Source: Owenia fusiformis (taxonomy: Eukaryota). From it: 64,000 bases of DNA. A program made the position numbers and the translations under genes. The notes below the pieces were generated by a model, which saw nothing but the letters and a program-made list of their open reading frames with translations, searched no databases and had not been told where the DNA came from. The first letter of the stretch is position 1; each line of letters starts with the position of its first letter. Below, in pieces: positions 31,513 through 47,610 of the stretch. The stretch lies in contig CAIIXF020000001.1 in the NCBI GenBank assembly GCA_903813345.2, forward strand, positions 22,444,001 to 22,508,000, in the 5' to 3' direction.

Positions 31513-34500
31513 TCAAAATGGTACTTGTACGAGAGCAGCAATCACGATAACGAGCACCAGAACAAGGATAGATGTCACTATCAGGTAAAGGCTCAGCATA
31601 CAGCACTTGAAGCGACGACCCTGAAATTATGGGATATATTGTGTTAAATATCAAATATGATGTTTATCAAAATAATGGGGATATTCCATAGAAAACTATA
31701 GCTCTTATTCAAGACTATACTTGACCAAAATCATAACAGTTTTCATATATAATATACAGTAATAAAGTTTCAACTGTAAATATACAATTTGAAATAATAA
31801 ACTTGCCATCAGATGAAAAAGGTAGTTGCATAATACCAGAGCATGTTGCTAAGTGAAACGAGTATCAGAATGGATTTTTTGATTATTTTAAAACAGTCAT
31901 GAACATTTATTGATTCTCATATACTACAAGTCACATTACTATAACACATTTATCATGAAGAATTGGTTATTTTGGGAGCAATCTATTCATTCTGTGAATG
32001 GAGATCAATATGGCATTGAAGCTCAGACTGTTATACTACTCAGATGTCACAAGACCATTCAATAAAATACGATACAATATATAAAATACAAATCAATAAA
32101 ATACAATACAATTTAGCAATTTAACCATTAAACCAAAGTTAATCTACTTAATAATTGGCAAAATCATGATCAGTGTGTAATATAGTTATTTTCCTTGAAA
32201 AAAGCTCCAATATGTCATTATCAATCTTTGAATAAATGGAGTGAAAACTTACAGAGTATTTGGGTTCAACGTCAGCCATTCTTGGATCTCCCTTCTTTTC
32301 CATTTCAATCTCTTCTCTCTTCTCTGTAATATAGAAATGAATTGAAAGTACAGTTTTGGGATTTAAAATGCCAAAACATGAATAAATAACATGCTAAATT
32401 GTTGAAATTTGTTTGCACCCTGCAAAAAATATTGGGATATTTTGACCAAAACAGATACCTTTAAATTCACAAAAAATGCCGCCATTTTGAATAAATATGA
32501 GGCAAAATGATGAATTATGTATTTGTGTCAGTCATACTATGAATGCCTATAATATCAATAAATTAAGACATGTTCCTTAAATATTTTTTTTGTATGTCAG
32601 AATTTTACTCTACAGGGTGTCCGGAAAGTAAAGATACAAATGCTCTTATTTTAAGAAATTTGTTTTTTTTAAAATGAAATTGCTACAGATTGTAGAGGAA
32701 CAAAATTACAATATATCTACCAACTTTCATCATATATAGTCTTAATGTGTTTAAGTTACGGTTGTTATGGTTACGGATGTGAGGGGTATGCGGAGCAGTT
32801 CCAGAACAACGCTAAAAAGTGAAAAATTGCTAAATGACAACCATTTGAAACAGTGTTTTTTGTTGTTGTATTTTCTATGTTTGTTTTTTTTTGTTCATCA
32901 TTGTATTATTGCAGCTGCCATAGTGTTTTCTATTATATAATGATGTCATTGCTACTGAACTATGTTATGTCACTTACCAGTATAATGAAAGAAATATTAT
33001 ACAAGTGCCTAGAAGAATGGTCCCTGGCAATTTGTAGGAAAGTCAATATTGCATCTCCACAATGCACCAATTCACAAAGCAAAAAACAAATCTTACAATT
33101 GAGTGCCTTGACATTAAACCTTTCTATACAATGCCCCATATTCACCTGATAAAGTCTATTTAGACTTCTACCTGAATGACCATTTGAAAGCAATATTTGT
33201 AAAAAAGGTCAACATACAAATTAGACTCAGCTGGAAGCCAATGTTATCAGCAATCTGAGAGATGGACAGCAGCGGTTTTGTCAGGTCTTTGAACCGCCGG
33301 TCAAGATGCACCAAGAATGTATAGATAAAGGGGAAAATACTGAATATTAATGATAGCAGTAAATGAAAATTAGTAAGTGAAATTATCAAATAATGTTACA
33401 TTACTAATCCCTATGCTGTTGTGCTACATAATTTGATATAATATAGGTATAGATGGTGGAGTGCCAAGATCATATGAGTAGGAAAGAGATTTGTAGAACA
33501 CAGTTGTGACGTTGCTCCACTTACCCTCGACTCCCGTTACCATAACAACCATAACTTTTTCATTTTGAAACTGAAAGTCATGACAGTTGCAGGATATATT
33601 GTTATAATGTCATTCTACATTCTGGAGCAATTTCATCTCATAACAGGTAAATCTCTTGAAATTAGAGCATTTGTATCTTTACTTTCCGGACACCCTGTAG
33701 TTTTCAAATATGTGCTCAGACTATGATAATACGGAAAATTAAAAAAGTTATTAAAGAAAAAGTGACCATTGAACAATTCTGTCCGGGCTACTAATCAATA
33801 TTTAGCACTCAGTGTGATATGGGATGCACAAAGCAATTCTGGATGTTATCCTACAATTATTAGTTATTTAGAGATCTAAATCATACATGTAATTATTTTA
33901 ATCTTCAAATGTTGTATGGTCTTATTCAAATATACTTAATGCAACTGAAAAATATCACTTTAACAAAAGTCAACAAACTTTCCCTTCGTGTTTAAAAGCA
34001 AATAACAGTGACAACTTTTTAGTTGTTTCATTAATGAGAATTCCAAATTTTTGTTTAACAAAACTACAACAAATATGAAGAAAAGAGTGATCCTCTCTAG
34101 AATAACCCAATTAACAAGACATATGATAGATATTACAATATATACATGTATATATATAATAAATAAATATGATTAACATAACAAAATGTCACCACCTAGT
34201 TGCTCATAATATTATTAGTTCAATCTTAAGTCAGATTTGAATTTCTAAGAACTCAGTATATGATTTTGAAAAAATATTTGGTCAATTGAAGCATGTTTTT
34301 TTACCCTGAGAAGGTCAAATCTCAAATCTAAAGTCAGATGTGAACTTCTGAGAACTTGTAGATGATTTTGAATAAATACCTTTTTGACCTTGAGAAAGTC
34401 ATTGAAGGTCAAATCTTTTTTGACCTTGAGAATGTCATTGAAGGTCGACTCTAAAGTCAGATTTGAACTTCTGATAACTTATAGATGATTTTGAAAAAAC

Positions 34501-37500
34501 ATTATGGGTCAATTTGTAGCAAGTTGAAAAATACCTTTTTGACCTTTTTAACCTTTTTTGACCTTGAGAAAACATGTAGACAATTTGGAAAAAAATTGAA
34601 GTCAGTCGAAACAGCATTTGTTAAGTTATTGAAAATTTTAAGAATTTGTTACAGACAGTGAGACACCAACTGCCGATCGGCAACCACCAACTGCCACCAC
34701 AAAAATAAAGACCATAACAAATGTCACCATTTCTTAGTGGTGACATAACAATCAAAATTCAATAAAATCCACGAAGAACAAGAGTATACAGGATGTAAAT
34801 ACTAACAGATATCAAAACAATTAACAACCTTATGAGAATAAGTGCAACTTACAAAGTGATATACCATGGTACATGTGAACTAGGAGTCCAGAGACCAGTC
34901 ATTTTTAGTGCCAGTAAAAAGAGCCTCATGTGTAATTATTATTACAATACTGTTTTAGCAGAATAAAATAAAATTATAAGAAAGACATTGACGCGCATTT
35001 TGAAAGAATGCTTCCTTCTTTTAAGTAATGTTACAAATTACTGTCTATAAAACAAATACACAACATGGCTCTGGGGCCTGGGGGCAGTGTATTAACAGAT
35101 ACCAGTTAGACAAAACAATAATCAAAACAATACCTTTCTTTTGCCTGGCTAGAGAAATGAAAAGAAACTACTTACAGAGATAGATACAAGCAGATGGAAA
35201 TATCTCACATTGCATAATAGTTTTAGTAAAAAGGGATTGAGAAGAGCAATGACAATACTGGAGATATTTGCTAACAAAACATCAAGAGAAAAGAACAAAA
35301 TTTTTGAAGGTTTCACCAGGAGATTTATAGAATGAAAATAAACGATTTTCATATGTATAGATGAAAATAAACGATTTCCATATGTATAACTGAGTGGATG
35401 ATTTAGAGATTTTTACATGTGAAAATCATATCTAATGGTCTTAAGGTAGACAAAGTAATTTAGTTAATATAATGGGCATTTTATGCCATCAACCAACTTG
35501 GTCCACCTTAATCATAACACAGGCATTAACACTACCTGCCATTTATTACACTTACCAAACTCCAAACACTTAACGCCAACATTTGAACACCAACCGCCAA
35601 ACATGTTCACAAAAAAGTCTTGAGACTAAAACAATATAATATAATATAACATAATGATACCAGGCAGGTAGTGTTTGTACGTATATGTCATTATTACCTT
35701 TGTTCCTTCTGTTCATACAGCACTGGTGGATCTCCAAGATAAGCTCACAGACGACATGGAAGATCACCCAAGCCACCATGATCCATGTAGCCCACCATGG
35801 CACAAACACCTTTGGGAAACCCATTCCAAGGAAAATTGTTGGAGCTGGAAGCAATTTTCATAAAAATAGAGGCTTTCTTTTAAATATTAAACCGCAACGA
35901 GCATTTTTTAGAAGAACTATTCAGCTAATAAGTCCTGACTGATTGACATATTTGTAGCGTCCTTAATGTTCAATGATATACATATCATTATGTTCCTTAT
36001 TTATGCCTGTAAAACGTACTATTCCAAGAAAACATCATTTATTAAATAAATAAAGTGACTGATAAATTTAATTCAAACATTAGACCCTAAACCAGCGTTA
36101 CCATGCATTACCAAAACACTCCCAACATGCCTACACGTATCTATATATACAGTAAAAGCTAGTCAGATGACTCAGTCAAATGTTGAATTCTGAACAGTTG
36201 TACATGTATTCAATGTAGACAGGTTTGACAGTACATAATTATTATATCCAATTCCAACTCACCAGACAACACATGGCCAACTGTACCTACTCCCCAATGA
36301 ACCCAGTTAAAAATTGGACGATTAGGCGTATCAGGATGAGGGCGGAATAATGCAAGTATAGGCTGAAACACATGCAAGCATTACACATACATTAAGGGGT
36401 TCAAGCTAAAGGTTCACAAACAATGGGTTCATAAGCTGAGCATGGTTGAATCTTATACACCTCTGGTATCCTGCAATGGAAGAAGCCCTTTATTAATAAA
36501 AATCTAAGGTTACCAATCTAAACATGCGCTTCAAATCCAATGTAATTTAACATCACCACATGCATACTGTAAATTGGGTTACTTTTGGTGCCTGATTAAT
36601 TTTGATAAAAGCAATTCGAAAAATTCACCATTTTAAATCTTCCCAAAATATGACATTGGTCCCTTGAAAGATTGTTGTTTTTGTAGCATATATACATAAA
36701 GAGAGACCGCCTTCTGGTACAACAATTTTAGGAAGTAATGTCCATTGCCATAACTGAGAAACAGCAAAACAGAACCAACTTGGCTCAGCCAAGAACAGGA
36801 ACAAGAAAGGATTGTAATGCCAGCATCAGCATTAAAATCATGAAAACATCATTGAAAACACGTTCTCACTCAATACATACGCAGAAAATTAGCTAAGCCT
36901 AAATCCTCTATTGAAAATATCAACAAGGCATCAACATGCAAAATGTCAACACCAGTTATTGAAAGCTCCAACCATCAAACACAAAAAAAGTTGGACACTA
37001 AAACAATATGGGTGGTGAAGGAAAAACTGAAAAATTCCTAAAATGAAATACAATAACATTTGATAGGCAAGACTACAAGTATTCATGAACCGAATGACGG
37101 ACAACCTGGACACCCATATTAAATAATAATAATAAAAAAATGACAGGATGATAAAGGTGACATATATACTATTTACTTCATGGACTGTGACTTTTGTGAC
37201 ATCCTGTAGAAAGCAACGATTTGAATAGAAAAGAATATTCAATGAATGCTACAGATGGCCTTAATTATTCAGTGCTCTGCATCCACCCGTCCGGCTCAGC
37301 GGTAGCACAGGTACCTCTTACGCAATAGGTACCGGATTCGATCCCCAGTTCTGGCAAGACTTAATTTGCTTGTTTGCGTAAAGTACTTCAGGGTGTTTGA
37401 CAGAGTGGTCCACAACTCGTACAAAACGCTGAGGTGTGTACTTGTATGTCTATGTATGGGTGCACATAAAATAACACAGGGCTCCTTTGAGGAGGGGTTT

Positions 37501-40500
37501 CTGGGTCTATCTTCCAGGCTAATTATGTTAATTATGACTGTATATATATATGGGATATACCCAAGAGGTATTGCTCACCTTTATTGGTGGTAAACATAAT
37601 ACAATACAATACAAATCACACTCAGGGACAAGCAAATGGGACACTCATCACAAGCAAATAAGTGAAAAAAAACATTGATCCAGAGAGATTCAGAGTGCCA
37701 CTTATTGAGCAATAGCTGAAGCTACAAAAGCTAGGGGAAATAGCAACAGACATAGCCTACTACTATAAAGGACCATGTCAAAGAAATCAACTTTGTTTCA
37801 AAATTAATTTTTAATAATTTCTAAAATTATATTTTAGACCAACTGACCAGCAAGTCACCAACTGACCAACAAGTCATATTTAGAATTTTTGTTTTCACTG
37901 CCACCTCCAAAAATCTCTTTTTAAATGATCCATTTTATTTCCTCAACAAATAAAACAAATAAGTTATGTTTTAAGGCCAATTTATTATACATAATGACCT
38001 TATCTCATGCTCTTAACACCTGTCAGGCCAAAGCTGTCAAATGTGAAACCCTGGAACCTTTTGAAAAGTGAACCAATTGGCAAAGTGAACCCATTGGCAA
38101 ATGCTGGCTATGGGCCTCCCTGTGGAACCAGTCAATAACCAAGGTTCAGAAAAGAAAGTTCACATAAAGTTTTGACAAATAGAGGTTTGAGGCCTATATC
38201 ATGTTTAACAGTAGCAGCATCGGCATCAATATAAATAAGACCCCTTCATAAGAATGTTCACATGCTATTGTTACTGGGTGATTAATTCTCCATGGACGAA
38301 AACACACTCAAGGGGTTCATCGTCGTTAAAACTATAATAAAAAGCAACTGACAGGTGTAACTGCTTGTGAATACAATGATCTCATTAAAAAGTGATATCT
38401 TTTGATTCGCAATTTGTGATCCAATGAACGATAATACCTCATAGAAGGCACTGACACTGAATTAACCCCTTTGCAAGTTTTACTCCATTAGGCCCTACAT
38501 ATTTCTTTGTCATTGGTTCAATCATGAACAAATGATTCTACACAATCAACCTTCATGCAGTTGTGCTATTCTACACCAAGGGTTATGGAGTTAGTTTAGA
38601 TTACAAAGTTTTGCTGTTCGAACTTTATGTCACTATAATCGGTCTTTTAATGAATTCTTATACCCATTAAAATATTCTTTTATCTTAATACTCCATGGAA
38701 GAAGGATAGCACATAGTGGATGATGTCTGCACCTCTGTTTTAAAAGGATGCAAACTTCATATCTCTAACTATTTTCTCATTGTATGAAAGTGTCTTACGA
38801 TGGTAGGCAAATATGTCACTTTGTGATCTAAACAAACCAAGCTCCCGGGTAAATATATCATGGACAAATTGTTCAAAAACAAAAGGGAAGCTAAACAGTA
38901 GATTGCTAGGCATGCAAGTATGTGGCGCCACCTATACTTGCACTTACTGGCCAGAAAATGGGCCACTGCACCAAAGAGCCAGTGAATCCAGTTGAAGATT
39001 GGGCGGTCAGGGTCGCCGGGGTGACAACGGAAGATAGAGATTATTGGCTGAAAATGGATCAGTTAATCAATGCTGAATAAACGGTTCAGAAATTGTTAGG
39101 CCTAAATAAATAATAAACGAAGGTACAATGCATTTTATAGTGATACAAAAAAATGTTGAATGCCATTAACATGATCTTATTTATCATATATTTAGACACA
39201 TATAGAAGTTACGAGACTAGTGTTTAAAGAAAAACAAGTTAAAAGTAAAAAACTTAAAAAGTAAAAAACTTCCTTATTTTAAGAAGTGACAATTATACTG
39301 TTCTTGGACTAATAACTAAAAATTCTCCTTTTGCTGTTCAGGAGAATGGGACTCTGAACAAGTCTACTTACGTTTAGTATACAAAGTACTGTAACAATAA
39401 TTCCAAGGATTGGATGGGCGTCCCACCAGGAATAACCTCTCCACTGAAACAACACAATTGAAGAATTAAGAGAGAAACGTAAAGACCCCCTCACATATGA
39501 ACGAATCCACCAAACGAAGTTTTGCGAAGTGATAAATGCGAACAGAAGCGCATCTTTGCGCACGGTTCTGAAGTTGTTCGATGCACAACGTACATATACT
39601 AATTGGGACAAATTTTACCCAGTTCCTATTCGCAAGAATGTGTTAAGTGGATTCGTTCATATGTGAGGGGGCTTAAGATAGATTTAAACCTAAAGTCAAA
39701 AACAAATAGACTATGATTCAGTATGCCACATATGAACGAAAATAACTGTCAGGTTTCATATTGATGTGCTAGAGTACCAACATACTTTACATATGGAAAT
39801 GACTAAATCTATAACTCACATAAAATTGGCCCGTTCTTTGAGAATCTCTTACTTTAATATGAACTTTTTTTTTAAATCATTTTATTTAGCCTAGGGTTTA
39901 CAGTTTACACTATTATATCCCCTAGGGGGAAATTTTATTTAACTTACTAAGCTGTAGCCACCAACTTCCACGAAGATAATTATGAAAGCGATAATAGTGA
40001 GAGCCAATGTAGTTATCATACAAGAGCGATGTATCTGGAAATGAAGAAAAATTACAGTATACAGAATGTTCAATAAGTACTTGGTCAAACATTAAATACT
40101 GTGAAAAAACGCTGTGAATTAAAGATATCAATAGAAGAGTATAACTGTAATAATAAGTCAGTTAACCAGCATCAGATACCAGGCAATAAGAACAACTTCT
40201 GCTTATTTACAACAATGCAAAATAAAATATTTTGCAAAACATGGAGACCGACAAGAAATCTAATTAATTATCTTGGCGAAGAATCTAATATTGTTCACAA
40301 ATGTGTCTCAAATTAAGATTTATTTGAAGCTTCATTTTGAAGGAAGTTGAATCAAACACCACCCGCTATGGCTCAGTGGCAGAGTCAAGGTTACCAATAT
40401 CGCTTGGCCCCGGGTTCGATTCCCGGTTCAGACAAGTTTGTTTGTGCGTTATGTAATTCTGGGTGTTTGACTGAGTGGTTCACGACTCGTATAAAAGGCT

Positions 40501-43500
40501 GTGGTGTGTACCTGTATGTCTGTGTACCTGTGCACACAAAAGAACACAGGGCTCCTCCAAGGAGGGGTTTCTGGCTCTATCTCCGAGTGTAAAATACGTA
40601 AAATACGGAATATACCAATGAGGTATTGCTCGCCAAATATGGCGGTAACCAAGATATAATAATAAAAACACCCCTGACTGAAAGCTGGCTACACCCCTTC
40701 CAAATATACTTGCGGAAAAGGTTCCTTAAGGATAGGTTCCTCGGTGAGAGGTATTCCCTTAGACAATTTGAACTGCATTCTATTTTACTGAAACAAAAAC
40801 ATAGAAAAATGTTTTTCTATTTGCCATTCTATGAGAATTGCTTACCTGAAACCAAACTCTCTCTCCACACGCTCTAGATTTGACCCACATAGGTTTGTAA
40901 TATCTCGCCAATATAATCCCAACACTGGCTGTTAGTACCCACGCTAAGGTCATCAAGCAACCTATAAACAAACAATTTGTATGATTAACATACAACCTAT
41001 AGGCTACAATATAAACTTGAAAATATGTTCATTTTTGCTTGTAAAGGAGAAGTGAAAGTATCGCAACAGATTTCAGACAGTGAAATATTGGATTTTGGCT
41101 ATTTTCTGAGGATTTAAACAGGTGCTTATGTTAGGACTATGCATTGCCTACAGAAAATATATTCATAGAGATGCAGTGATCTCCCCAGCATTAAAGCAAG
41201 TGGGCGCAACACTCATCTGAGATTTTTAAATAGGCTAGTACCCACCTGAAAATCCATTTGCACCCACTTGAAAATGAGAAGAAATTATGAAAATGGGCAT
41301 AATTTAACCAATTTTGGTCTGAATTGGAAAAATGAGAATTATGGCCCCACTTCAGAAAAAAACCTGTGGAGATCAGTTTGTAACATAAAAATCACAGTGG
41401 AGATCAGTGAGGTGAGAAAATATTTTCGACTTTGAGACAGGGAAGATGCAAATGACCCACCCACATGTTTTTTCTGAAATGTTTCCCTGATTTTCAACCC
41501 CTTCTACCTCTGCTTTTTCACCAATTTGTTGCACTAATATGTTGCATTTTGACACAAAACGAACCCCTTTAAAGGAAATGCGACACTTTCCCTCCTCTTT
41601 TAACTAGAGGACAATTTCTGATTTTGCAAAGCTGCATGTTGAAAATTAATGATTCACTTGTTGTTTCAGAACTCAATATTATATCTAAAAAAATCTAAAT
41701 CTTTTAGTAATTCAATAAACCAAGGGTATCTAAATCCTCCTATGGTATAACCAATTCCTTAAACATTATAATTACTTTTTAAAGTAATAATTAATAATAC
41801 TAGACTAGTGAAACACAAAATAAACACCCGACAAAACTTACCATGAACTTTCATCAGAGGATAGGTGGCTCTGCCGGTCAGTGATGGTTTACTACCACTA
41901 CCTGAGAAATCCACCATAGCAGGCGAAACAAGAGGAAATTGGCCATCAGTCATGACCTGATGTTTCTTGATGGCTCCAGTTGGTGCAGCAAAACCCTGGG
42001 CCACTAGTAGGTAGTACATTTTATCAAGGTTAAAGATTTGGTCCGCATCAATCATTTTCTTGCGATCAAACCTGCAGCTTATTCTTGAGCCACCAAGATA
42101 GCCACTTCCTCTAGTGAGTCCCGTGCTAGACTGGAATTAAGTGGCCCTCTAATTACTTATTTCATGAATATATGACAAAGGACATGTCTCAGTTTGGAGA
42201 ACAGTCTACTGGGCTAATAATTCTTTTGTGGAAAATGTAGAAATAACACCCAAATTAAATAATGAATATTCAAAGAGGACATTTAAATCTTCAAGATATA
42301 AAAATATCAAAATTGTCGGAAGTAGACGTAACGTGCAGTAGACCGATTCAATAAAATACAAGTCTCAATATGGAGGAAGAAGTTCATCAGTGTACTGCGC
42401 AAAGAGGTTTTTTATGAAAAATATAGAAATATCACCCAAATTAAATGGATATTCAAAAGAGGACATTTAAACCAACAATATGTAAAAATATCAAACTGTC
42501 CAAGCAGGCGTAACATGCAGTAGACTGATGAACTTCGTTCTCCAAATTGAGACTACAAGAGAGCTGCTCAAAATTAACAAGAAAAGTTCACATGTCATAT
42601 CTTTTGCATATAGTCAATATAATTGGGTGAAGTAGTTTCAGTTTTATATATAGGATCTGTACAGTTTACTTGAAGGTAGATACATTCTTTATATAGTTTA
42701 TCTTTTCCATAGTCATTTTTACTTAGTCTCTTCACTTCACATGACATCCAAGACTAATATTATCTTTTATGGCTAAATATTGAAAGGGAGTCCTATTTTA
42801 GCCATCAGTAAACATATTTGCTGACTCTAAAATTCCCTACATGAGTGTTTTTCGAACCAGAGATTTGTTCTTTTTCTCTCAACATTATGCACAATTCTGT
42901 TTTTTAATCAGTACTCTTTATTTCATAAAAATCATGAATAAATCTATAGTTAAATCACGGGGCAATCACCCAGAAAGGGCATTTCTACTGCCGCTTAAAG
43001 TGAATTTAAATTACAATATCTGTAATAATATACACAGATTGAAATCATTTGTTTATGTGGGCCATCATTTACTGCACCTAGCTAGTTTCTCAGAGAAATA
43101 TGAAAATGAATTTAAATGTGATCCAAACCCATATAGTGTTTATGTACATGCCAATCCATATAATCATCTACTTGGTTAAAAACCTCTAGGGTCACAATTA
43201 ATTATCTAAACCCAAAGAAATATATATACAGTATATATAACTTTTATTGACATCTTGTATCATTACATATTTACATTAGTCATAAATGTTTTACTTACAA
43301 CTCGTCCACTTCCCTTTCCTTCATTATAGTAGTTTTGTATGACAACAGTTCCCGTAATGTTAGAGTATGCACAGACAACAACACTGTCATCGCCCTGGAA
43401 ACATTCAAGTGAAATATAGTTGTGCAATGGCATTTTTTATGGCTTTTTTATTTAATTTAACGGAAAATGATGATTCAGATGAAAAAGTTTTCCAAACAAT

Positions 43501-46500
43501 GTCAGAGTGTATTCTGTATCTCACAGCATGAAAAATTCACCATCCTTGAAAAATGTAGTGAATTAAAAAGTTATTATCTGGAAGTTGAGCCAAACTGTTC
43601 ATTAATCAGACAAAAAAAACAATAATTAGCACAAGAATCAAAACAAGGCATTAACATGCAAAATCACCGACCACAAAAAAGTTGGAGACTGCAACAATAT
43701 GTCACTGGTTGCAGTGGTGATATAAAAATTGGATCTCATTCAGGAGAAAATGATTAAAGAACATACCATATGTTTATCCAGAGAGAACCCCAATGCAATA
43801 TATTCAGTATTGATGGAGCTCATCTCAAATGTGAAATAATCGCTATCTTGGCTACTCTCTTTCCACGTCACAAGGTATCTACAGCTGGCTTCATCACAGC
43901 CATCTGGGACACGATAACAACCTTTACCAGACCCACAGTCATTTACAGATATGGCAATGGGTGCAGCTGGCTGAAAAACAATAGAAAATCTATCAGATGA
44001 TTTTAAGCCCATACAAATGAGTCTCTGTATTTACATTTGAGGTATTTAACTTAATTTCCACTTGTGGTAAGATATTAGTTCGAACTCTTAGTTTTAGAGA
44101 AAAGGTAGTTAATGTCCTTATATGTCAATACCTTTTGCATTTGTTTTTATTTAATAATATATAGCTTCGTCTACATTGTATAAGAAAACCTCTAAACACT
44201 CCCAGCCAACCAGAACTTGTCACCAGAGGGATGATTTTGTATATAGCCTACCGTCATTTTGTCTGATGTCATTTTTGACTGATTGAGAAAATGTCAGCTC
44301 AATGGGTTTGAATTCCATTCTTTGCCATCCCCTCACATCCTGAATTTGTAAATCCTACCCCCAGGAAAACAGTCAACAAACTTATCCCTTCTAATCAATA
44401 CCCTGAATTTGTATATCCCCCTGCCCCCAGGAAAACAGTCAACAAACTTGTCTTCTAATCAACACCCTGATTTTGTATATCCCCCTGCCCCCCAAAAAAC
44501 AGTCAAAAAACATGTGTGCAAGTCAACACCCTGAATTTGTATATCCTCATGCCCACAGGAAAACAGTCAACAAACTTATGTCTTCTAATCAACACCCTGA
44601 ATTTATATATCCCCCTGTCCCCAGGAAAACAGTCAACAAACTTATGTCTTCTAATCAACACCTGAATTTATATATCCCCCTGCTGATGCAGCAACTGGCA
44701 AAGTTTATCTGGTCATTCTTGTAAATATATCATAAATGTAACTGTTACTTACAGAGGGTGGTGGAGGTGTGGTTGGTAAAGGTCCACCAGCGCCATCTAT
44801 CAGGTTAGCTGAAGGCTCCTGTACCCAAATTGTTGCGGTCTCTTTCACAAATGTACAACTAAAAATTCGAACAAAACATTACAGAAATGACCATATACAT
44901 ATGGAATTTATACTTAAAAATGTACTTCATAATCCATGATATATTTAATAACATACATAATTTGAATAAGAAAGAAATTAATTTTGACACTTTAAACTAG
45001 TTACACAATAAAGCCAAAAATGCAGCAAATGGAAATAAAAGGTGGTAAAATGAAATTGTTTAAACCATTTGTTATGATTTATGGAGCTCAACCAGGACCT
45101 AATCATAATTCACTTTGACTGTAAAGTGTAATGGCAAAACAGTAGCACAAATGAATTCACATGCATTTGTTCTACATCAGATTATCACAGCGATGATTAA
45201 GATAAGGTCAAAAACTGGTAGCAAATAAAAAAAAATTGTTAAACAATGAATGAGGAGAGAACAACATTCAGGAACCCCACCCCCACACACAAAACATGAA
45301 TCTACAAGGCATTAACACGCAAAATGTCACCACCTGGCATTTCTTACAGATGCCAAATGCTAAACCCCGAACACCAACTGACTTCAGAAAAAAGTTGGAG
45401 ACCATAACAAAATTGTCACCACTTGTGGTGGCGACATAAAAATTACTCTTATATTATAGCGTAAATAACACTTACTAGATTCTGACGTGAGCTGAACTGG
45501 GGTTTGGTGCCGTCCATTTTAGTGTTACACTTGTCTTAAGAGAATTTGAAGAGTGTGTCACACCGTTCTACAAAAAAGTACAAGAGTTTACTCTAATATG
45601 TTTATACATATTTGTTTTATCAAGGAATTTATAATTTATGATTTTTACTCTAAGTTAATGCATAAATCCAACCATTAAGCCCTTATTTGTCATTGTCCCG
45701 TTCAATCTGGAATGTGTCTTTGGCATCATTTTCAGAAAATATCTATTGGTTTGATAAAAGACAAGCGCAGAATTTCATCCGCATGTTTTCATTTAAGGCA
45801 CACTGTACTTCACAGCCAATAAAATGGTTCAAAATTTTTTTTTCTGACTTTAGAGTCGCTTTCATTGGTTAAAACCTTCTCTGATTGTTCTATTTTTGAA
45901 CTATGCATGAAGGTCCATTCAAAGTCGGCTATTGAACCTTAAAAAGCTATATTTACTAGACTGAGGATTGAAAGTTGTTCACGACAACTTTCAGCTCATC
46001 TTTATTGAGACGAACCAGAAGTGAATTTTTGTGTCGAGTAAATGGTGATAATGTTGTTTTTATGAAGCGAAGAAATCGAAACATTACAAATAGAAATCAT
46101 AGTAAGCATCTGAAGATCATTTAGAAGCATTTAAAATTGAATCTTCGGCAAAATTTGAAATTATTAAAATATTCCCACACCAACCTCAGAGAAAACACTT
46201 CCAGTTTTATAATCAATATTCTTATCGATCAAAAATTATTTTTATGAATTTTTTCGATATCCGATTGTTATTTTACAAAATAGGTAGGGTAAAGAATATG
46301 TCAAAGTCGTTTGATTTTGTCCCAGAAGCAATATATTGTTATTTTTATTGCCCAGAATGCCTTTAACTAAGCCGTGTCGTGGGTCACATGGTTTTACATA
46401 ATAGAACAATAAAAATTACATACAATTTTCAAAATTGTTTAAATATTGGCCCATTTTTCTTCACTGGGTCAGGTTTACTTACCCCCATAGCCCCCGAACA

Positions 46501-47610
46501 TTCTTGCTTAGCTCCTGCAGGTGCATCAAAAGATCCAACTGCTATTTCTTGGTTCATGCTAGCATCGAGATAACGTCCCTGGCACAGGTAACCCTTGAAC
46601 TGTTCTCCAGAGGAGCTAGCCAGGGTAACTACAAAAAAAGAGGGGGAAATATCTAAGGGACTTTAAAGGTAGAGACTCCATTTTTATGGCTCAATGTATG
46701 ACAAAATCTCCTGCCTTTTAGTATCGAGAACAAAAAATGCACTGAACTGATTGAAAATTTCCTGAAACATGTCGTAAAATGAAAATTAAAGTACTTTCCC
46801 CCAGAATTACTATTATGACTACAGTTGAATTTAGTTTATTAAGGACACCTAAAGGTGGGTCATTCCCAGGATTGGAAATATGACTATGGTTTTAGTTTAA
46901 ATCAAGGACTCCTTAAGGTGGGTCATTCCATGGTATTATGACTATGGTTTTAGTTTATCAAGGACTCCTTAAGATGGGTCATTCCCAGGATTGGAATTAT
47001 GACTATGGTTTTAGTTTAAATCAAGGACTCCTTAAGGTGGGTCATTCCCAGGAATTATGACTATGGTTTTAGTTTATCAAGGACTTCTTAAGGTGGGTCA
47101 TTCCCAGAAACTATCATGACTAAGGTTTTAGTTTATCAAGGACTCCTTAAGGTGGGTCATTCCCAGGAATGATGTCTATTGTTTTAGTTTATCAAGGACT
47201 CCTTAAGGTGGGTCATTCCATGGTATTATGACTATGGTTTTAGTTTACCAATGAGTCCTTAAGATGGGCCATTCCAGGAATTATGACAACGGTTTTAGTT
47301 TACCAAGGACTCTTTAAGGTGGGTCATTCCAAGGAATGATGCCTATTGTTTTAGTTCATCAAGGACTCCTTAAGGTGGGTCATTCCCAGTAGGTATATAT
47401 AACACTTTAAGACAAACCTGTGATTTCATCTCCAGATGTGAAGTTTGTTTTACTAAGCGTAATTTGGTACGGTGAAGGCATGGTCTGTGGGTTCACACCA
47501 TGATTCGGAAACATGCTGATGCATGCACCACTGGGAGCCCCAGTAGGATATCCAGATGTAAGAGACAGCAGGGTCAGGCAGAGGCCCACTGTCAACAACA
47601 GGCTTCTCAT
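31513..47610 (-). CDS. FRRS1: Ferric-chelate reductase 1 homolog (signal peptide-Reeler-DOMON-cytochrome b561), about 608 aa
   Basis: Exons 47610-47418, 46628-46483, 45567-45476, 44858-44753, 43970-43767, 43394-43299, 42130-41842, 40961-40846, 40034-39948, 39443-39372, [39047-38948 or 36362-36263], 35844-35698, 32323-32253, 31620-31513; all GT-AG, phases consistent, 1827 nt. Motifs: Reeler YPTGAPSGACISMFPNHG, FKGYLCQGR, VTHSS, WTAP; DOMON YIALGFSLDKHMGDDSVVVC; b561 heme His motifs KVHGCLM..AW, WFQIHR, AHPILG, FNWxHW. Confidence 0.95.
32613..33697 (+). mobile_element. Decayed Tc1/mariner-superfamily transposon (DD37D/maT-like) in the last FRRS1 introns
   Basis: Perfect 33-bp TIRs CAGGGTGTCCGGAAAGTAAAGATACAAATGCTC, TA TSDs; relic transposase motif PYSPDKVYLDFYLNDHLK at ~33136-33190 (cf. 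PxSPDLxPLDFxLWGxLK). Confidence 0.85.
34172..34751 (-). mobile_element. HINE family B copy with about 3 decayed cores
   Basis: Reverse complement of both ends and of the core of 9727-12278 (ATGTCACCACCTAGTTGCTC...GGTGACATAACAA). Confidence 0.85.
35134..35148 (-). CDS. Candidate 15-nt cassette microexon of FRRS1 (adds ARQKK)
   Basis: TTTCTTTTCATTTCTCTAG|CCAGGCAAAAGAAAG|GTATTG; phase 1-1, frame-preserving, no stop. Confidence 0.45.
36263..36362 (-). CDS. FRRS1: FRRS1 alternative exon 11B (PILALFRPHPDTPNRPIFNWVHWGVGTVGHVLS)
   Basis: TGTGTTTCAG acceptor, G|GTGAGT donor, 100 nt, phase 0-1. Confidence 0.88.
37285..37616 (+). mobile_element. tRNA-derived SINE (Nin/Deu-domain-like core)
   Basis: A box GGCTCAGCGG, B box GGATTCGATCCC, body homologous to 40361-40665, (AATAC)n tail. 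Confidence 0.8.
38948..39047 (-). CDS. FRRS1: FRRS1 alternative exon 11A (PIISIFRCHPGDPDRPIFNWIHWLFGAVAHFLA)
   Basis: CCATTTTCAG acceptor, A|GTAAGT donor, 100 nt, phase 0-1. Confidence 0.88.
39483..39673. mobile_element. PIF/Harbinger (Tourist-like) MITE
   Basis: TIR core CCCCCTCACATATGAACGAATCCAC and its perfect reverse complement; TAA on both flanks. Confidence 0.8.
40361..40665 (+). mobile_element. tRNA-derived SINE (Nin/Deu-domain-like core)
   Basis: A box TGGCTCAGTGG, B box GGTTCGATTCC, central AAAGGCTGTGGTGTGTACCTGTATGTCTGTG...GTGCACACAAAAGAAC, (TAA)n tail, TSD AAACACC (40354-40360, 40666-40672). The Nin/Deu assignment is from recalled similarity. Confidence 0.85.
42187..42553. repeat. 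Tandem pair of ~175-190 bp MITE-like units
   Basis: GTCTCAGTTTGGAGAAC (42187) and GTCTCAATATGGAGG...AAGTTCATCAGT (42362) vs terminal ACTGATGAACTTCGTTCTCCAAATTGAGAC; internal CACCCAAATTAAAT...GAGGACATTTAAA is duplicated. Confidence 0.55.
44338..44683. repeat. ~62-bp minisatellite, about 5.5 copies
   Basis: Unit CCCTGAATTTGTATATCCCCCTGCCCCCAGGAAAACAGTCAACAAACTTATGTCTTCTAATCAACA. Confidence 0.9.
45304..45442 (-). mobile_element. Core-less miniature HINE family B copy (similar relics at 43642-43728 and 36922-37026)
   Basis: ACAAGGCATTAACACGCAAAATGTCACCACC...GAGACCATAACAAAATTGTCACCACTTGTGGTGGCGACATAAAAA matches both ends of 9727-12278 with no satellite between. Confidence 0.75.
46812..47389. repeat. 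~56-63 bp minisatellite, 10 copies
   Basis: Unit ATTATGACTATGGTTTTAGTTTATCAAGGACTCCTTAAGGTGGGTCATTCCCAGGA; fills most of the first coding intron of FRRS1. Confidence 0.92.

What the first reader, a model, noticed from the sequence alone, without database searches (positions are those of the whole stretch)
36263..39047. Tandem-duplicated, apparently mutually exclusive exons swapping a heme-ligand segment of FRRS1
Seen: two 100-nt exons (39047-38948 and 36362-36263), both phase 0-1 with good splice sites, 19/33 identical residues and many synonymous differences, both keeping FRxHP...RPIFNWxHW. Including both or neither shifts the frame, and I found no duplicates of the flanking exons. Established: the His of FNWxHW is a cytochrome b561 heme ligand, and by topology this loop faces the cytosolic electron-donor (ascorbate) side. 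Inference: an old, selected isoform switch (RCHPGDPD vs RPHPDTPN, acidic plus Cys vs neutral) that may tune donor binding or redox potential. I know of no description of this for FRRS1/SDR2, but have not searched.
Basis: partly seen in the sequence, partly recalled or inferred. Interest (0 to 1): 0.75.

Follow-up and report, generated by a model that had tools for sequence, protein, structure and literature searches.

The report
Alternative exon pair in annelid FRRS1
An annelid ferric-chelate-reductase gene carries two old, homologous 100-base exons of which only one can be used per messenger, swapping the inner-face loop and haem-binding helix start of its cytochrome b561 domain; this is a real but ordinary kind of alternative splicing.

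Summary
On the minus strand lie two 100-nt exons, A (39047-38948) and B (36362-36263). They share phase and AG/GT sites and are 62/100 nt and 19/33 aa identical. No other exon of the gene is duplicated in the window. The gene is a Reeler+DOMON+cytochrome b561 protein (FRRS1/SDR2 type) of Owenia fusiformis. The public annotation already holds both isoforms, identical except for this segment and a truncated 3' end: CAH1773709.1 has B and CAH1773710.1 has A. Synonymous sites are saturated (pS 0.77) against pN 0.25, and both exons keep 8 of 8 family-conserved residues. Both copies are therefore old and under selection. Using both exons, or neither, gives a premature stop. In three RNA-seq runs B is spliced to the next exon (10/14/19 reads), while A is unread in two runs and at most trace in the third. 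B looks like the default and A like a regulated minor form. The segment holds the fourth haem histidine, the ascorbate-site arginine, and a Cys/Pro switch at a site that is dimorphic across the family. No counterpart was seen in other species' isoforms. It is a new member of a known kind.

The parts
31516..47610 (-). FRRS1/SDR2-type gene (Reeler + DOMON + cytochrome b561), 14 coding exon positions counting A and B as one
   Evidence: tblastn of P0003 and P0059 on the window. Pfam matches for Reeler, DOMON and Cytochrom_B561 are above cut-off in both isoforms.
39372..39443 (-). Constitutive upstream exon (WRGYSWWDAHPILGIIVTVLCILN). It holds H453, the third haem histidine, and most of TM3.
38948..39047 (-). 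Exon A, 100 nt, phase 0 to 1, AG/GT sites. It encodes residues 468-500 of isoform CAH1773710.1 (P0003), with Cys at H3+22.
   Evidence: Read depth in the bin 38551-39000 is 0.54/0/0.01 in X13/X14/X15.
36263..36362 (-). Exon B, 100 nt, same phase, AG/GT sites. It encodes residues 468-500 of isoform CAH1773709.1 (P0059), with Pro at H3+22. It is the exon used in the three RNA-seq runs.
   Evidence: The joint 36263|35844 has 10/14/19 reads, and depth at 36300 is 10/10/23.
35698..35844 (-). Constitutive downstream exon (rest of TM4, outer loop, TM5)
38912..38942 (-). Intron segment at +6..+36 after exon A's 5' splice site. It forms a local 9-10 bp hairpin. Its 5' arm (38942-38931) is a perfect 12-nt complement of the first 12 nt of exon B.
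   Evidence: The hairpin's energy is no better than shuffles (z -0.01).
36351..36381 (-). 3' splice-site region and first 12 nt of exon B, complementary to the segment after exon A (31-nt arms, 74%; 12-nt perfect core)
38911..38916 (-). UGCAUG hexamer (RBFOX-type element) starting at +32 downstream of exon A
36371..36376 (-). UGCAUG hexamer at -14..-9 upstream of exon B

Best explanation
An old tandem duplication of one 100-nt exon in an FRRS1/SDR2-type gene of Owenia fusiformis produced a two-member cluster of mutually exclusive exons. Each mRNA that can be translated to full length carries A or B. Because 100 is not a multiple of 3, using both or neither shifts the frame onto a premature stop that lies upstream of at least two further exon junctions. 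I infer that such mRNAs are removed by nonsense-mediated decay. The swapped 33 residues (468-500) are the end of TM3, the second cytoplasmic loop and the first two-thirds of TM4 of the b561 core. Both versions keep Arg474, Arg482 (H4-7, the ascorbate-binding arginine position of Dcytb), Phe-Asn-Trp and His489 (H4, ligand of the cytoplasmic haem). They differ at H3+22 (Cys in A, Pro in B), in loop charge (two Asp in A, one in B) and in the TM4 face after the histidine. B is close to the family consensus and is the default form in the RNA sampled. I infer that A is a regulated minor form that changes the electron-donor side of the protein without changing its fold. Shown: the anatomy, the frame logic, the constraint on both copies, the deposited isoforms and the B junction reads. 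Inferred: NMD enforcement, regulated use of A and a functional difference between the isoforms.
For: Anatomy and frame.

Only this exon is duplicated in the window.

Two deposited isoforms of one gene differ only in this segment and in a truncated 3' end: P0059 = CAH1773709.1 with B, and P0003 = CAH1773710.1 with A, marked partial.

The genome paper's Methods (PMC9977687, section 18, passages read) say the final gene set came from PASA combining RNA-seq with Augustus models, giving 26,966 genes and 31,903 transcripts. A 3'-truncated second isoform is what a transcript-derived model looks like; this step is my inference.

Reads: the joint 36263|35844 with GT..AG ends on the minus strand has 10, 14 and 19 reads in X13, X14 and X15, all in the orientation of a minus-strand RNA. 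Depth at 36300 is 10/10/23 against 13/15/26 at 35837.

Selection: Nei-Gojobori gives Sd 18 of S 23.3 (pS 0.77, saturated) and Nd 19 of N 75.7 (pN 0.25). Both exons keep 8 of 8 positions that are >=87% conserved in 194 distinct family segments.

Structure and sites: the model has pLDDT 91.3 with helices 452-472 and 482-508 flanking loop 473-481. H375, H416, H453 and H489 are conserved in 50/48/50/47 of 50 sequences and R482 in 47/50. Both isoforms pass Pfam Cytochrom_B561 at 28.7 and 30.3 bits against a cut-off of 23. Passages of PMC10691727 state four things: the CYBDOM core is TM1-TM4 with loops in the order cytoplasmic, non-cytoplasmic, cytoplasmic; H2 and H4 hold the cytoplasmic haem; Arg at H4-7 binds cytoplasmic ascorbate in Dcytb and is the only such residue fully conserved in CG8399; H3+22 contacts ascorbate in Dcytb.

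Position H3+22 is dimorphic across the family: Pro in 139 and Cys in 53 of 194 distinct segments.
Against: No read that I could see shows exon A spliced. The bin holding 53 nt of exon A has depth 0.54, 0 and 0.01 in X13, X14 and X15. That means zero in two runs and at most about 4-5 reads' worth in the third, and those letters could equally be intronic. Only 15 of 232 joints were printed, so A junctions and the 39372|36362 junction may be hidden. All three runs come from one study and only 6-12% of each was read.

The A isoform could stem from a hint-driven prediction rather than from a transcript; I did not see the annotation's evidence tracks.

In 13 other multi-member protein clusters (Physella X1-X3, Mytilus trossulus X1/X2, Ptychodera X1-X3, a second Owenia paralogue, Lingula, Sinanodonta, Haliotis and others), members differ by at most 2 substitutions in this segment. 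Conservation of the pair outside this species is therefore not shown. No genome of another animal could be searched.

The selection estimate rests on only 33 codons.
Confidence: 0.7

Rival explanations
1. Exon A is a relic. It is a duplicated exon that is no longer (or almost never) productively used, and the A isoform in the annotation is a by-product of prediction hints or of splicing noise. The gene in effect makes only the B protein.
For: Exon A is unread in two of three RNA-seq runs and at most trace in the third, while B has 10-23 reads of depth. B is consensus-like and A is the more divergent copy: 22 and 19 of 33 residues match the majority residues listed (my own count from that table). 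The A model is partial. No other species' isoform set shows such a swap.
Against: Synonymous sites are saturated, yet exon A keeps an open frame, both splice sites and 8 of 8 strongly conserved family residues, including Arg474, Arg482 and His489, with pN of only 0.25. A copy drifting neutrally for that long should have lost them. Its Cys at H3+22 is the second natural state of that site in the family, found in 53 of 194 distinct segments. Isoform A scores slightly higher than B on Pfam Cytochrom_B561, 30.3 against 28.7 bits.
Confidence: 0.15
2. Exon A acts mainly as a 'poison' exon. Its inclusion together with B shifts the frame and sends the mRNA to nonsense-mediated decay, so the pair regulates the amount of protein rather than its kind.
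For: A+B inclusion gives a stop 29 nt into exon B, upstream of at least three exon junctions. A 12-nt perfect complement joins the intron just after exon A to the start of exon B, which would bring A's donor and B's acceptor together. PMC5740500 passages report reads joining mutually exclusive exons for many frame-incompatible human clusters.
Against: A poison exon needs no protein-level conservation, yet A keeps every conserved residue of the family in frame, and a deposited model uses A alone. No A|B joint (38948|36362) is among the 15 printed joints, although 217 were not printed.
Confidence: 0.07
3. The pair did not arise by a local duplication inside this lineage. Either it is much older, predating the split of spiralian phyla with loss of one copy elsewhere, or exon B was copied in from a paralogue by gene conversion.
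For: Each exon is closer to some other species' proteins than to its partner. B matches P0028 and P0107 at 24/33, and A matches Tubulanus P0011 and Lingula P0101 at 22/33, against 19/33 for A with B. The motif NWVHWG is shared by exon B and the second Owenia paralogue P0094. A carries the 'HWLFG' signature of its closest full-length relatives P0005, P0016 and P0093.
Against: Thirty-three residues give no reliable tree. B is simply consensus-like, so a slowly evolving B and a faster-evolving A after a local duplication explain the same numbers. No DNA of the paralogue or of other species was available.
Confidence: 0.2

Closest known systems
Mutually exclusive exons from tandem exon duplication, with exclusivity enforced by frame incompatibility and NMD (as catalogued for human genes in PMC5740500 and PMC9741552; passages read)
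   Same: The exons are adjacent and homologous, with equal length and phase. Joint inclusion or joint skipping shifts the frame. There appears to be one ubiquitous exon plus one regulated exon. The gene encodes a membrane protein, and core functional residues are kept in both versions.
   Different: The gene family: neither paper's main text mentions FRRS1, CYB561 or b561 (supplements were closed). So far the pair is seen in one annelid only. Use of the second exon rests on a deposited model, not on reads I could inspect.
FRRS1 / SDR2 / Drosophila CG8399 (CYBDOM ferric-chelate reductases)
   Same: Reeler + DOMON + b561 architecture. DOMON Met and His are conserved (M247 48/50, H336 46/50). All four b561 histidines and Arg at H4-7 are present. 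The model has six helices after the DOMON domain.
   Different: In the passages I read of PMC10691727, the word 'alternative' does not occur and 'isoform' only names the models used. Here H3+22, described there as a well-conserved proline in the insect proteins, is switched to Cys by exon choice.
RBFOX-controlled mutually exclusive exons (C. elegans egl-15 5A/5B and unc-32 7a/7b; PMC3585155, passages read)
   Same: A UGCAUG lies 14 nt upstream of one exon (B), the position from which ASD-1/FOX-1 repress egl-15 exon 5B. Another lies 32 nt downstream of the other exon (A). Six of the ten UGCAUG in the 16-kb gene lie in the 2.9 kb around the pair.
   Different: Nothing is known about RBFOX in this animal from my calls. 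There is no conservation test and no binding or expression data. A UGCAUG also lies 157 nt downstream of exon B, which would favour B.
Docking-site/selector competing RNA structures (Dscam exon 6, 14-3-3 zeta, human ATE1; PMC6071210 and PMC7797038 seen as search listings and abstracts only)
   Same: A long-range complementarity links the two alternative exons' splice-site regions, and one arm can also pair locally, which makes a competition possible.
   Different: The pairing is between A's donor-side intron and B's own first 12 nt, not between a docking site and selectors upstream of each variant. There is a single pair, no conservation data, and the local hairpin is no more stable than shuffles.

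Membership tests
FRRS1/SDR2-type CYBDOM protein | N-terminal Reeler domain | tested here: met
   Pfam PF02014 at 107 bits against a cut-off of 21 in both isoforms. The profile of A1 hits F-spondin reeler structures at E 5e-12, and Foldseek hits 2zot at E 8.6e-8.
FRRS1/SDR2-type CYBDOM protein | DOMON domain with Met/His haem ligands in the SxDxxMGxD context | tested here: met
   PF03351 at 57 bits against a cut-off of 32.7. S242, D244, M247 and D250 are nearly invariant. M247 is present in 48/50 and H336 in 46/50. The motif is taken from PMC10691727 passages. Haem binding itself is not testable here.
FRRS1/SDR2-type CYBDOM protein | Cytochrome b561 core with four conserved histidines on four consecutive helices | tested here: met
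   PF03188 at 28.7 and 30.3 bits against a cut-off of 23, covering residues 374-511. H375, H416, H453 and H489 are present in 50/48/50/47 of 50 sequences, one at the start of each of the helices 370-396, 411-438, 452-472 and 482-508. There is a weak profile match to Dcytb 5zle, E 0.12.
FRRS1/SDR2-type CYBDOM protein | Ascorbate-dependent ferric reductase activity | not testable with these tools
   Activity is reported for fly CG8399 and mouse SDR2 in PMC10691727 passages. Nothing was measured for this protein.
Mutually exclusive exon cluster from tandem duplication | Neighbouring homologous exons of the same length and phase with canonical splice sites | tested here: met
Mutually exclusive exon cluster from tandem duplication | Each exon is found alone in mature mRNA | tested here: inconclusive
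   B is confirmed by junction reads in three runs. A is supported only by the deposited isoform CAH1773710.1; read depth is 0 in two runs and at most trace in one.
Mutually exclusive exon cluster from tandem duplication | Joint inclusion or joint skipping is not productive | tested here: met
   In silico, both give premature stops upstream of further junctions. Decay of such mRNAs was not tested.
Mutually exclusive exon cluster from tandem duplication | The pair is conserved in related species | not testable with these tools
   No animal genomes are held (the tool collections are prokaryotic, viral or metagenomic). As a proxy, 0 of 13 other multi-member protein clusters show a swapped segment.
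Docking/selector RNA-structure-controlled exon clusters | A conserved docking site that pairs alternatively with a selector next to each variant exon | tested here: inconclusive
   One 12-nt perfect complement lies between A's donor-side intron and B's start. A match of >=12 nt occurred in 4 of 3000 shuffles of six splice-site windows. No selector for exon A was found and conservation is untestable.
RBFOX-regulated alternative exons | (U)GCAUG close to the regulated exon, conserved and bound by RBFOX | tested here: inconclusive
   The motifs are present and locally enriched: 6 in 2.9 kb, Poisson P 0.0005-0.0017. Conservation and binding were not tested.

The most novel reading that the evidence does not exclude
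The choice is a wired switch. The 12-nt arm just after exon A's donor site can pair either locally, forming a hairpin whose 3' arm overlaps a UGCAUG, or with the first 12 nt of exon B. An RBFOX-type protein binding the UGCAUG at +32 after A and at -14 before B would open the hairpin, let the arm mask B's acceptor, and so select A in RBFOX-expressing cells such as nerve or muscle. The protein consequence would be a toggle of the family-wide Pro/Cys dimorphic residue (H3+22) beside the ascorbate-binding arginine. One gene would then yield two donor-side chemistries that other species encode in separate genes.
Probability: 0.12. Interest if true: 0.55.

Novelty: new member of a known kind. Interest (0 to 1): 0.35.

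Why it matters
FRRS1/SDR2/CG8399 proteins are thought to act as redox bridges from cytosolic ascorbate to extracellular haem and iron, but their in vivo role is poorly known (PMC10691727 passages). This gene is a natural experiment. The two isoforms are identical except for the cytoplasmic loop and helix start that carry the donor-side arginine and haem histidine, and they differ at a site (H3+22) that is either Pro or Cys across the whole family. Comparing the two isoforms could show what that dimorphism does. For splicing biology it adds one more frame-enforced mutually exclusive pair in a membrane protein, in a little-studied animal group. That is useful for annotation but not surprising.

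Tried and rejected
1. Whole genome: none is held for this window, so no search for paralogue DNA or for further copies was possible.

2. Index search for RNA runs: no RNA holder was listed. I used the three raw-read RNA runs of the same species label instead.

3. Run X1 (guessed to be RNA) behaves as DNA. One contig spans 38799-39599 unspliced (table 8), so it says nothing about splicing.

4. Read laying printed only 15 of 232 joints.

5. A word-index search with the exon A peptide found only the window's own protein, 1 of 1 candidate. A 'shorter' search for fragments gave 2 proteins, neither from this gene.

6. A single-sequence PDB search gave only chance-level hits, E 0.64-0.83. The profile search gave Dcytb at only E 0.12. 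Foldseek with the whole model returned reeler and Ig-like sandwiches and no b561 chain in the top 50, so the histidine mapping rests on conservation, helix order and the literature.

7. Intron flanks of A and B show no similarity above shuffles, so no duplication scars or shared intronic elements were detected that way.

8. The local hairpin after exon A is not more stable than shuffles: -17.5 kcal/mol, z -0.01, and 87 of 200 shuffles fold as well. In the duplex scan along 16 kb, B's acceptor region is the best non-self partner (-40.4), but the next is -37.9. I therefore keep the RNA pairing as a candidate only.

9. Cys407 in the first cytoplasmic loop does not covary with Cys at 475: 6 of 11 sequences with Cys475 have Cys407, against 18 of 36 with Pro475. 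I dropped the idea of a paired cysteine site.

10. Earlier notes of this scan returned nothing.

11. ARAGORN found no tRNA in the repeat that looked tRNA-like by eye.

12. Papers: no description of such an exon pair was found. The searches were 'mutually exclusive exons'+'FRRS1' (3 papers, unrelated by title and abstract); 'mutually exclusive'/'cytochrome b561'/'tandem exon duplication' (12 of 66 listed, none with b561); and 'b561'+'mutually exclusive' (17 papers, 15 listed, none relevant by title and abstract). The main texts of PMC5740500 and PMC9741552 were also checked. Supplementary tables, where gene lists would be, were closed.

Full report
**What is in the sequence**

The minus strand of 35700-39500 shows two 100-nt exons with canonical AG...GT borders: A at 39047-38948 and B at 36362-36263. 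They lie between an upstream exon, 39443-39372, and a downstream exon, 35844-35698. Both translate in the same frame to 33 residues plus one base carried over.

- The exons share 62 of 100 bases and 19 of 33 residues.
- Of the 33 codons, 9 are identical, 10 differ only synonymously and 14 differ in residue.
- tblastn of six family proteins against the whole window (E<=0.1) finds each other exon once and only this exon twice.
- The intron flanks of A and B have no similarity above shuffles.

**Which gene and organism**

Pieces of the gene hit Reeler and DOMON. A search with the exon A region returned one protein, P0003, named by NCBI as an unnamed product of Owenia fusiformis. tblastn places it at 100% identity on most window exons. 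Its 90% cluster has exactly two members from the same 62-Mb contig:

- P0003 = CAH1773710.1, 566 aa, marked partial.
- P0059 = CAH1773709.1, 608 aa.

These differ only in the 33-residue segment (P0003 has A, P0059 has B) and in P0003 lacking the last 42 residues. Both pass Pfam's cut-offs for Reeler, DOMON and Cytochrom_B561.

The genome paper's Methods (PMC9977687, section 18, passages read) say the final gene set was made by PASA from RNA-seq evidence and Augustus models, giving 31,903 transcripts for 26,966 genes. A second isoform that stops inside the penultimate exon looks like a transcript-derived model. That step is my inference; I did not see the evidence tracks.

**Is it mutually exclusive, and is it used?**

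Joining upstream+A+downstream or upstream+B+downstream keeps the frame open. A+B gives a stop 29 nt into B, and skipping both gives a stop 78 nt into the downstream exon. Two more coding exons follow, 32324-32253 and 31632-31516, so such mRNAs would be NMD substrates by the usual rule (established knowledge, not tested here).

I laid three raw RNA-seq runs of the same species label, all from one study, with 6-12% of each read. What they show:

- The joint 36263|35844 (GT..AG on the minus strand) has 10, 14 and 19 reads in X13, X14 and X15.
- All of these reads have the orientation expected for a minus-strand RNA.
- Depth at 36300 inside exon B is 10/10/23, against 13/15/26 at 35837 in the next exon.
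- The 450-nt bin holding 53 nt of exon A has mean depth 0.54, 0 and 0.01.
- Exon A is therefore unread in two runs and at most about 4-5 reads' worth in the third, and those letters may be intronic.

B is therefore shown to be used and is the major form in these samples. A's use rests on the deposited model. This fits the common pattern of one ubiquitous and one regulated exon (a section heading of PMC5740500).

**Age and selection**

Nei-Gojobori counts give 18 synonymous differences on 23.3 sites (pS 0.77, beyond saturation) and 19 non-synonymous differences on 75.7 sites (pN 0.25).

I extracted the homologous 33-mer from 219 family proteins, which gave 194 distinct segments. At the 8 positions that are >=87% conserved (Pro1, Arg7, Arg15, Phe18, Asn19, Trp20, His22, Gly26), both A and B carry the family residue, 8 of 8 each. 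A copy drifting neutrally for long enough to saturate silent sites should not look like this, so both copies have been under purifying selection. The estimate rests on 33 codons.

**What the segment is in the protein**

An AlphaFold2 model of P0059 built with 50 homologues has mean pLDDT 91.3. After the DOMON domain it has helices 370-396, 411-438, 452-472, 482-508, 517-561 and 575-602. His375, His416, His453 and His489 each sit near the start of the first four helices and are conserved in 50, 48, 50 and 47 of 50 sequences.

Passages of PMC10691727 state the following:

- In CYBDOM proteins the b561 core is TM1-TM4, with loops in the order cytoplasmic, non-cytoplasmic, cytoplasmic.
- H2 and H4 hold the cytoplasmic haem.
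- Dcytb binds cytoplasmic ascorbate through H2-7, H2-3 and H4-7 (Arg152), with contacts at H3+22 and H4-3.
- In CG8399 proteins only the Arg at H4-7 is fully conserved, and prolines at H3+22 and H3+24 are well conserved.

Mapped onto this gene, the alternative exon encodes residues 468-500: the end of TM3, the second cytoplasmic loop (473-481) and the first 19 residues of TM4. Both versions keep Arg474, Pro477 (H3+24), Arg482 (H4-7), Asn486 (H4-3) and His489 (H4). They differ in three respects:

- H3+22 is Cys in A and Pro in B.
- The loop has two Asp in A and one in B.
- The TM4 residues after the histidine differ.

Across the 194 distinct family segments, H3+22 is Pro in 139 and Cys in 53, with other residues in only 2. 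The exon choice therefore toggles a site that is dimorphic throughout the family. A functional difference between the isoforms remains an inference.

The direct structural comparison was weak. The family profile matches Dcytb 5zle only at E 0.12, and Foldseek with the whole model returned no b561 chain in its top 50.

**Other species**

I examined 13 further multi-member clusters. They include same-species isoform sets of Physella, Mytilus trossulus, Ptychodera, Sinanodonta and Lingula, and a second Owenia paralogue. In all of them, members differ by at most 2 substitutions in this segment. No animal genome could be searched (and the tool collections), so whether the pair exists elsewhere is open.

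Each exon is nearer to some foreign proteins than to its partner: B matches P0028 and P0107 at 24/33, and A matches Tubulanus P0011 and Lingula P0101 at 22/33, against 19/33 between A and B. That is compatible with an old duplication, with faster change in A, or with conversion from a paralogue. Thirty-three residues cannot decide between these.

**Possible control elements (candidates only)**

An inverted repeat links 38912-38942, which is intron +6..+36 after exon A, with 36351-36381, which is B's acceptor and first 12 nt.

- Its core is a perfect 12-nt complement, and that 12-mer occurs in the 64-kb window only at these two places.
- In 3000 shuffles of six 40-nt splice-site windows, a complement of >=12 nt between any two windows arose 4 times.
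- The same arm can form a local hairpin, but that hairpin is no more stable than shuffles.
- In a duplex scan of 1594 windows along 16 kb, B's acceptor region is the best non-self partner at -40.4, with the next at -37.9.

UGCAUG, the element recognised by RBFOX proteins in metazoans (PMC3585155 passages), occurs 10 times in the 16-kb gene. Six of these lie in the 2.9 kb around the pair (Poisson P 0.0005-0.0017 using the window's own rates). One starts at +32 after A and one at -14 before B. The latter position is the one from which ASD-1/FOX-1 repress egl-15 exon 5B. Another lies 157 nt after B and would favour B. Without orthologous introns none of this can be tested, so I report it as the novel reading at low probability.

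**Comparison with what is known, and verdict**

This is a two-exon, frame-enforced mutually exclusive cluster from tandem exon duplication. That is a well-known kind, typical of membrane proteins (PMC5740500 and PMC9741552, passages). I found no paper describing one in FRRS1 or any b561 gene (searches; main texts; supplements closed). However, the two isoforms are already deposited.

It is a new member of a known kind, real and probably functional, and of moderate interest. Its main use would be as a natural pair of variants for probing the donor side of a poorly understood reductase.

Noticed in passing
window 37375-37522 and 40445-40592: Two copies (83% identical over 148 nt) of an interspersed repeat lie in two introns of the gene. 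The bins holding them have very high depth in the RNA runs on both orientations and in the DNA-like run X1, so it is a high-copy, transcribed element. ARAGORN finds no tRNA in it.
   Followed up: partly
window 46830-47442 and 44353-44643: Tandem repeat arrays lie inside introns of the gene. The first has about 56-nt spacing (9 copies of a 107-nt reference, plus a 119-nt doublet). The second has 64-66-nt spacing and 4 copies.
   Followed up: no
proteins P0094 / P0237 (CAH1788474.1 / CAH1788473.1), not in the window: Owenia fusiformis has a second FRRS1-type gene on another chromosome-sized contig. It is also annotated with two isoforms, but these differ only at the C-terminal end (from residue 573), not in the segment studied here.
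   Followed up: partly
proteins P0032, P0033, P0036, P0037, P0102, P0118, P0233: In some homologues (Plakobranchus and Elysia, Sinanodonta, others unnamed) the fourth haem histidine is replaced by Tyr (NWFYW / NWIYW). In all, 7 of 194 distinct segments have Tyr there. These proteins may have lost or changed the cytoplasmic haem site.
   Followed up: no
window 36300: A polymorphism (A>T on the plus strand) inside exon B is seen in 3/10, 3/10 and 1/23 RNA reads and in the DNA-like run. By my reading it changes GTT to GTA on the coding strand and is synonymous.
   Followed up: partly
protein P0243 (unnamed ENA contig, 898 nt): A predicted protein from an unnamed contig reads a B-like segment (…RPHPGDPNRPIFNWVHWGVGT…HCLA). 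It then runs on into unrelated sequence exactly where exon B ends here. This suggests an unspliced genomic fragment with the same exon boundary in another organism.
   Followed up: no
proteins P0091, P0092, P0096, P0109 and others: Many family representatives are 1200-1800 aa long with 4-8 matched stretches to the query's DOMON-b561 part. These are giant multi-DOMON or tandemly repeated CYBDOM proteins.
   Followed up: no
window 34501-34950 and 45301-45750: Two further bins have very high, mostly one-orientation RNA depth (121-231) and many loose ends and back-joints, typical of high-copy repeats or low-complexity sequence rather than of this gene's exons.
   Followed up: no
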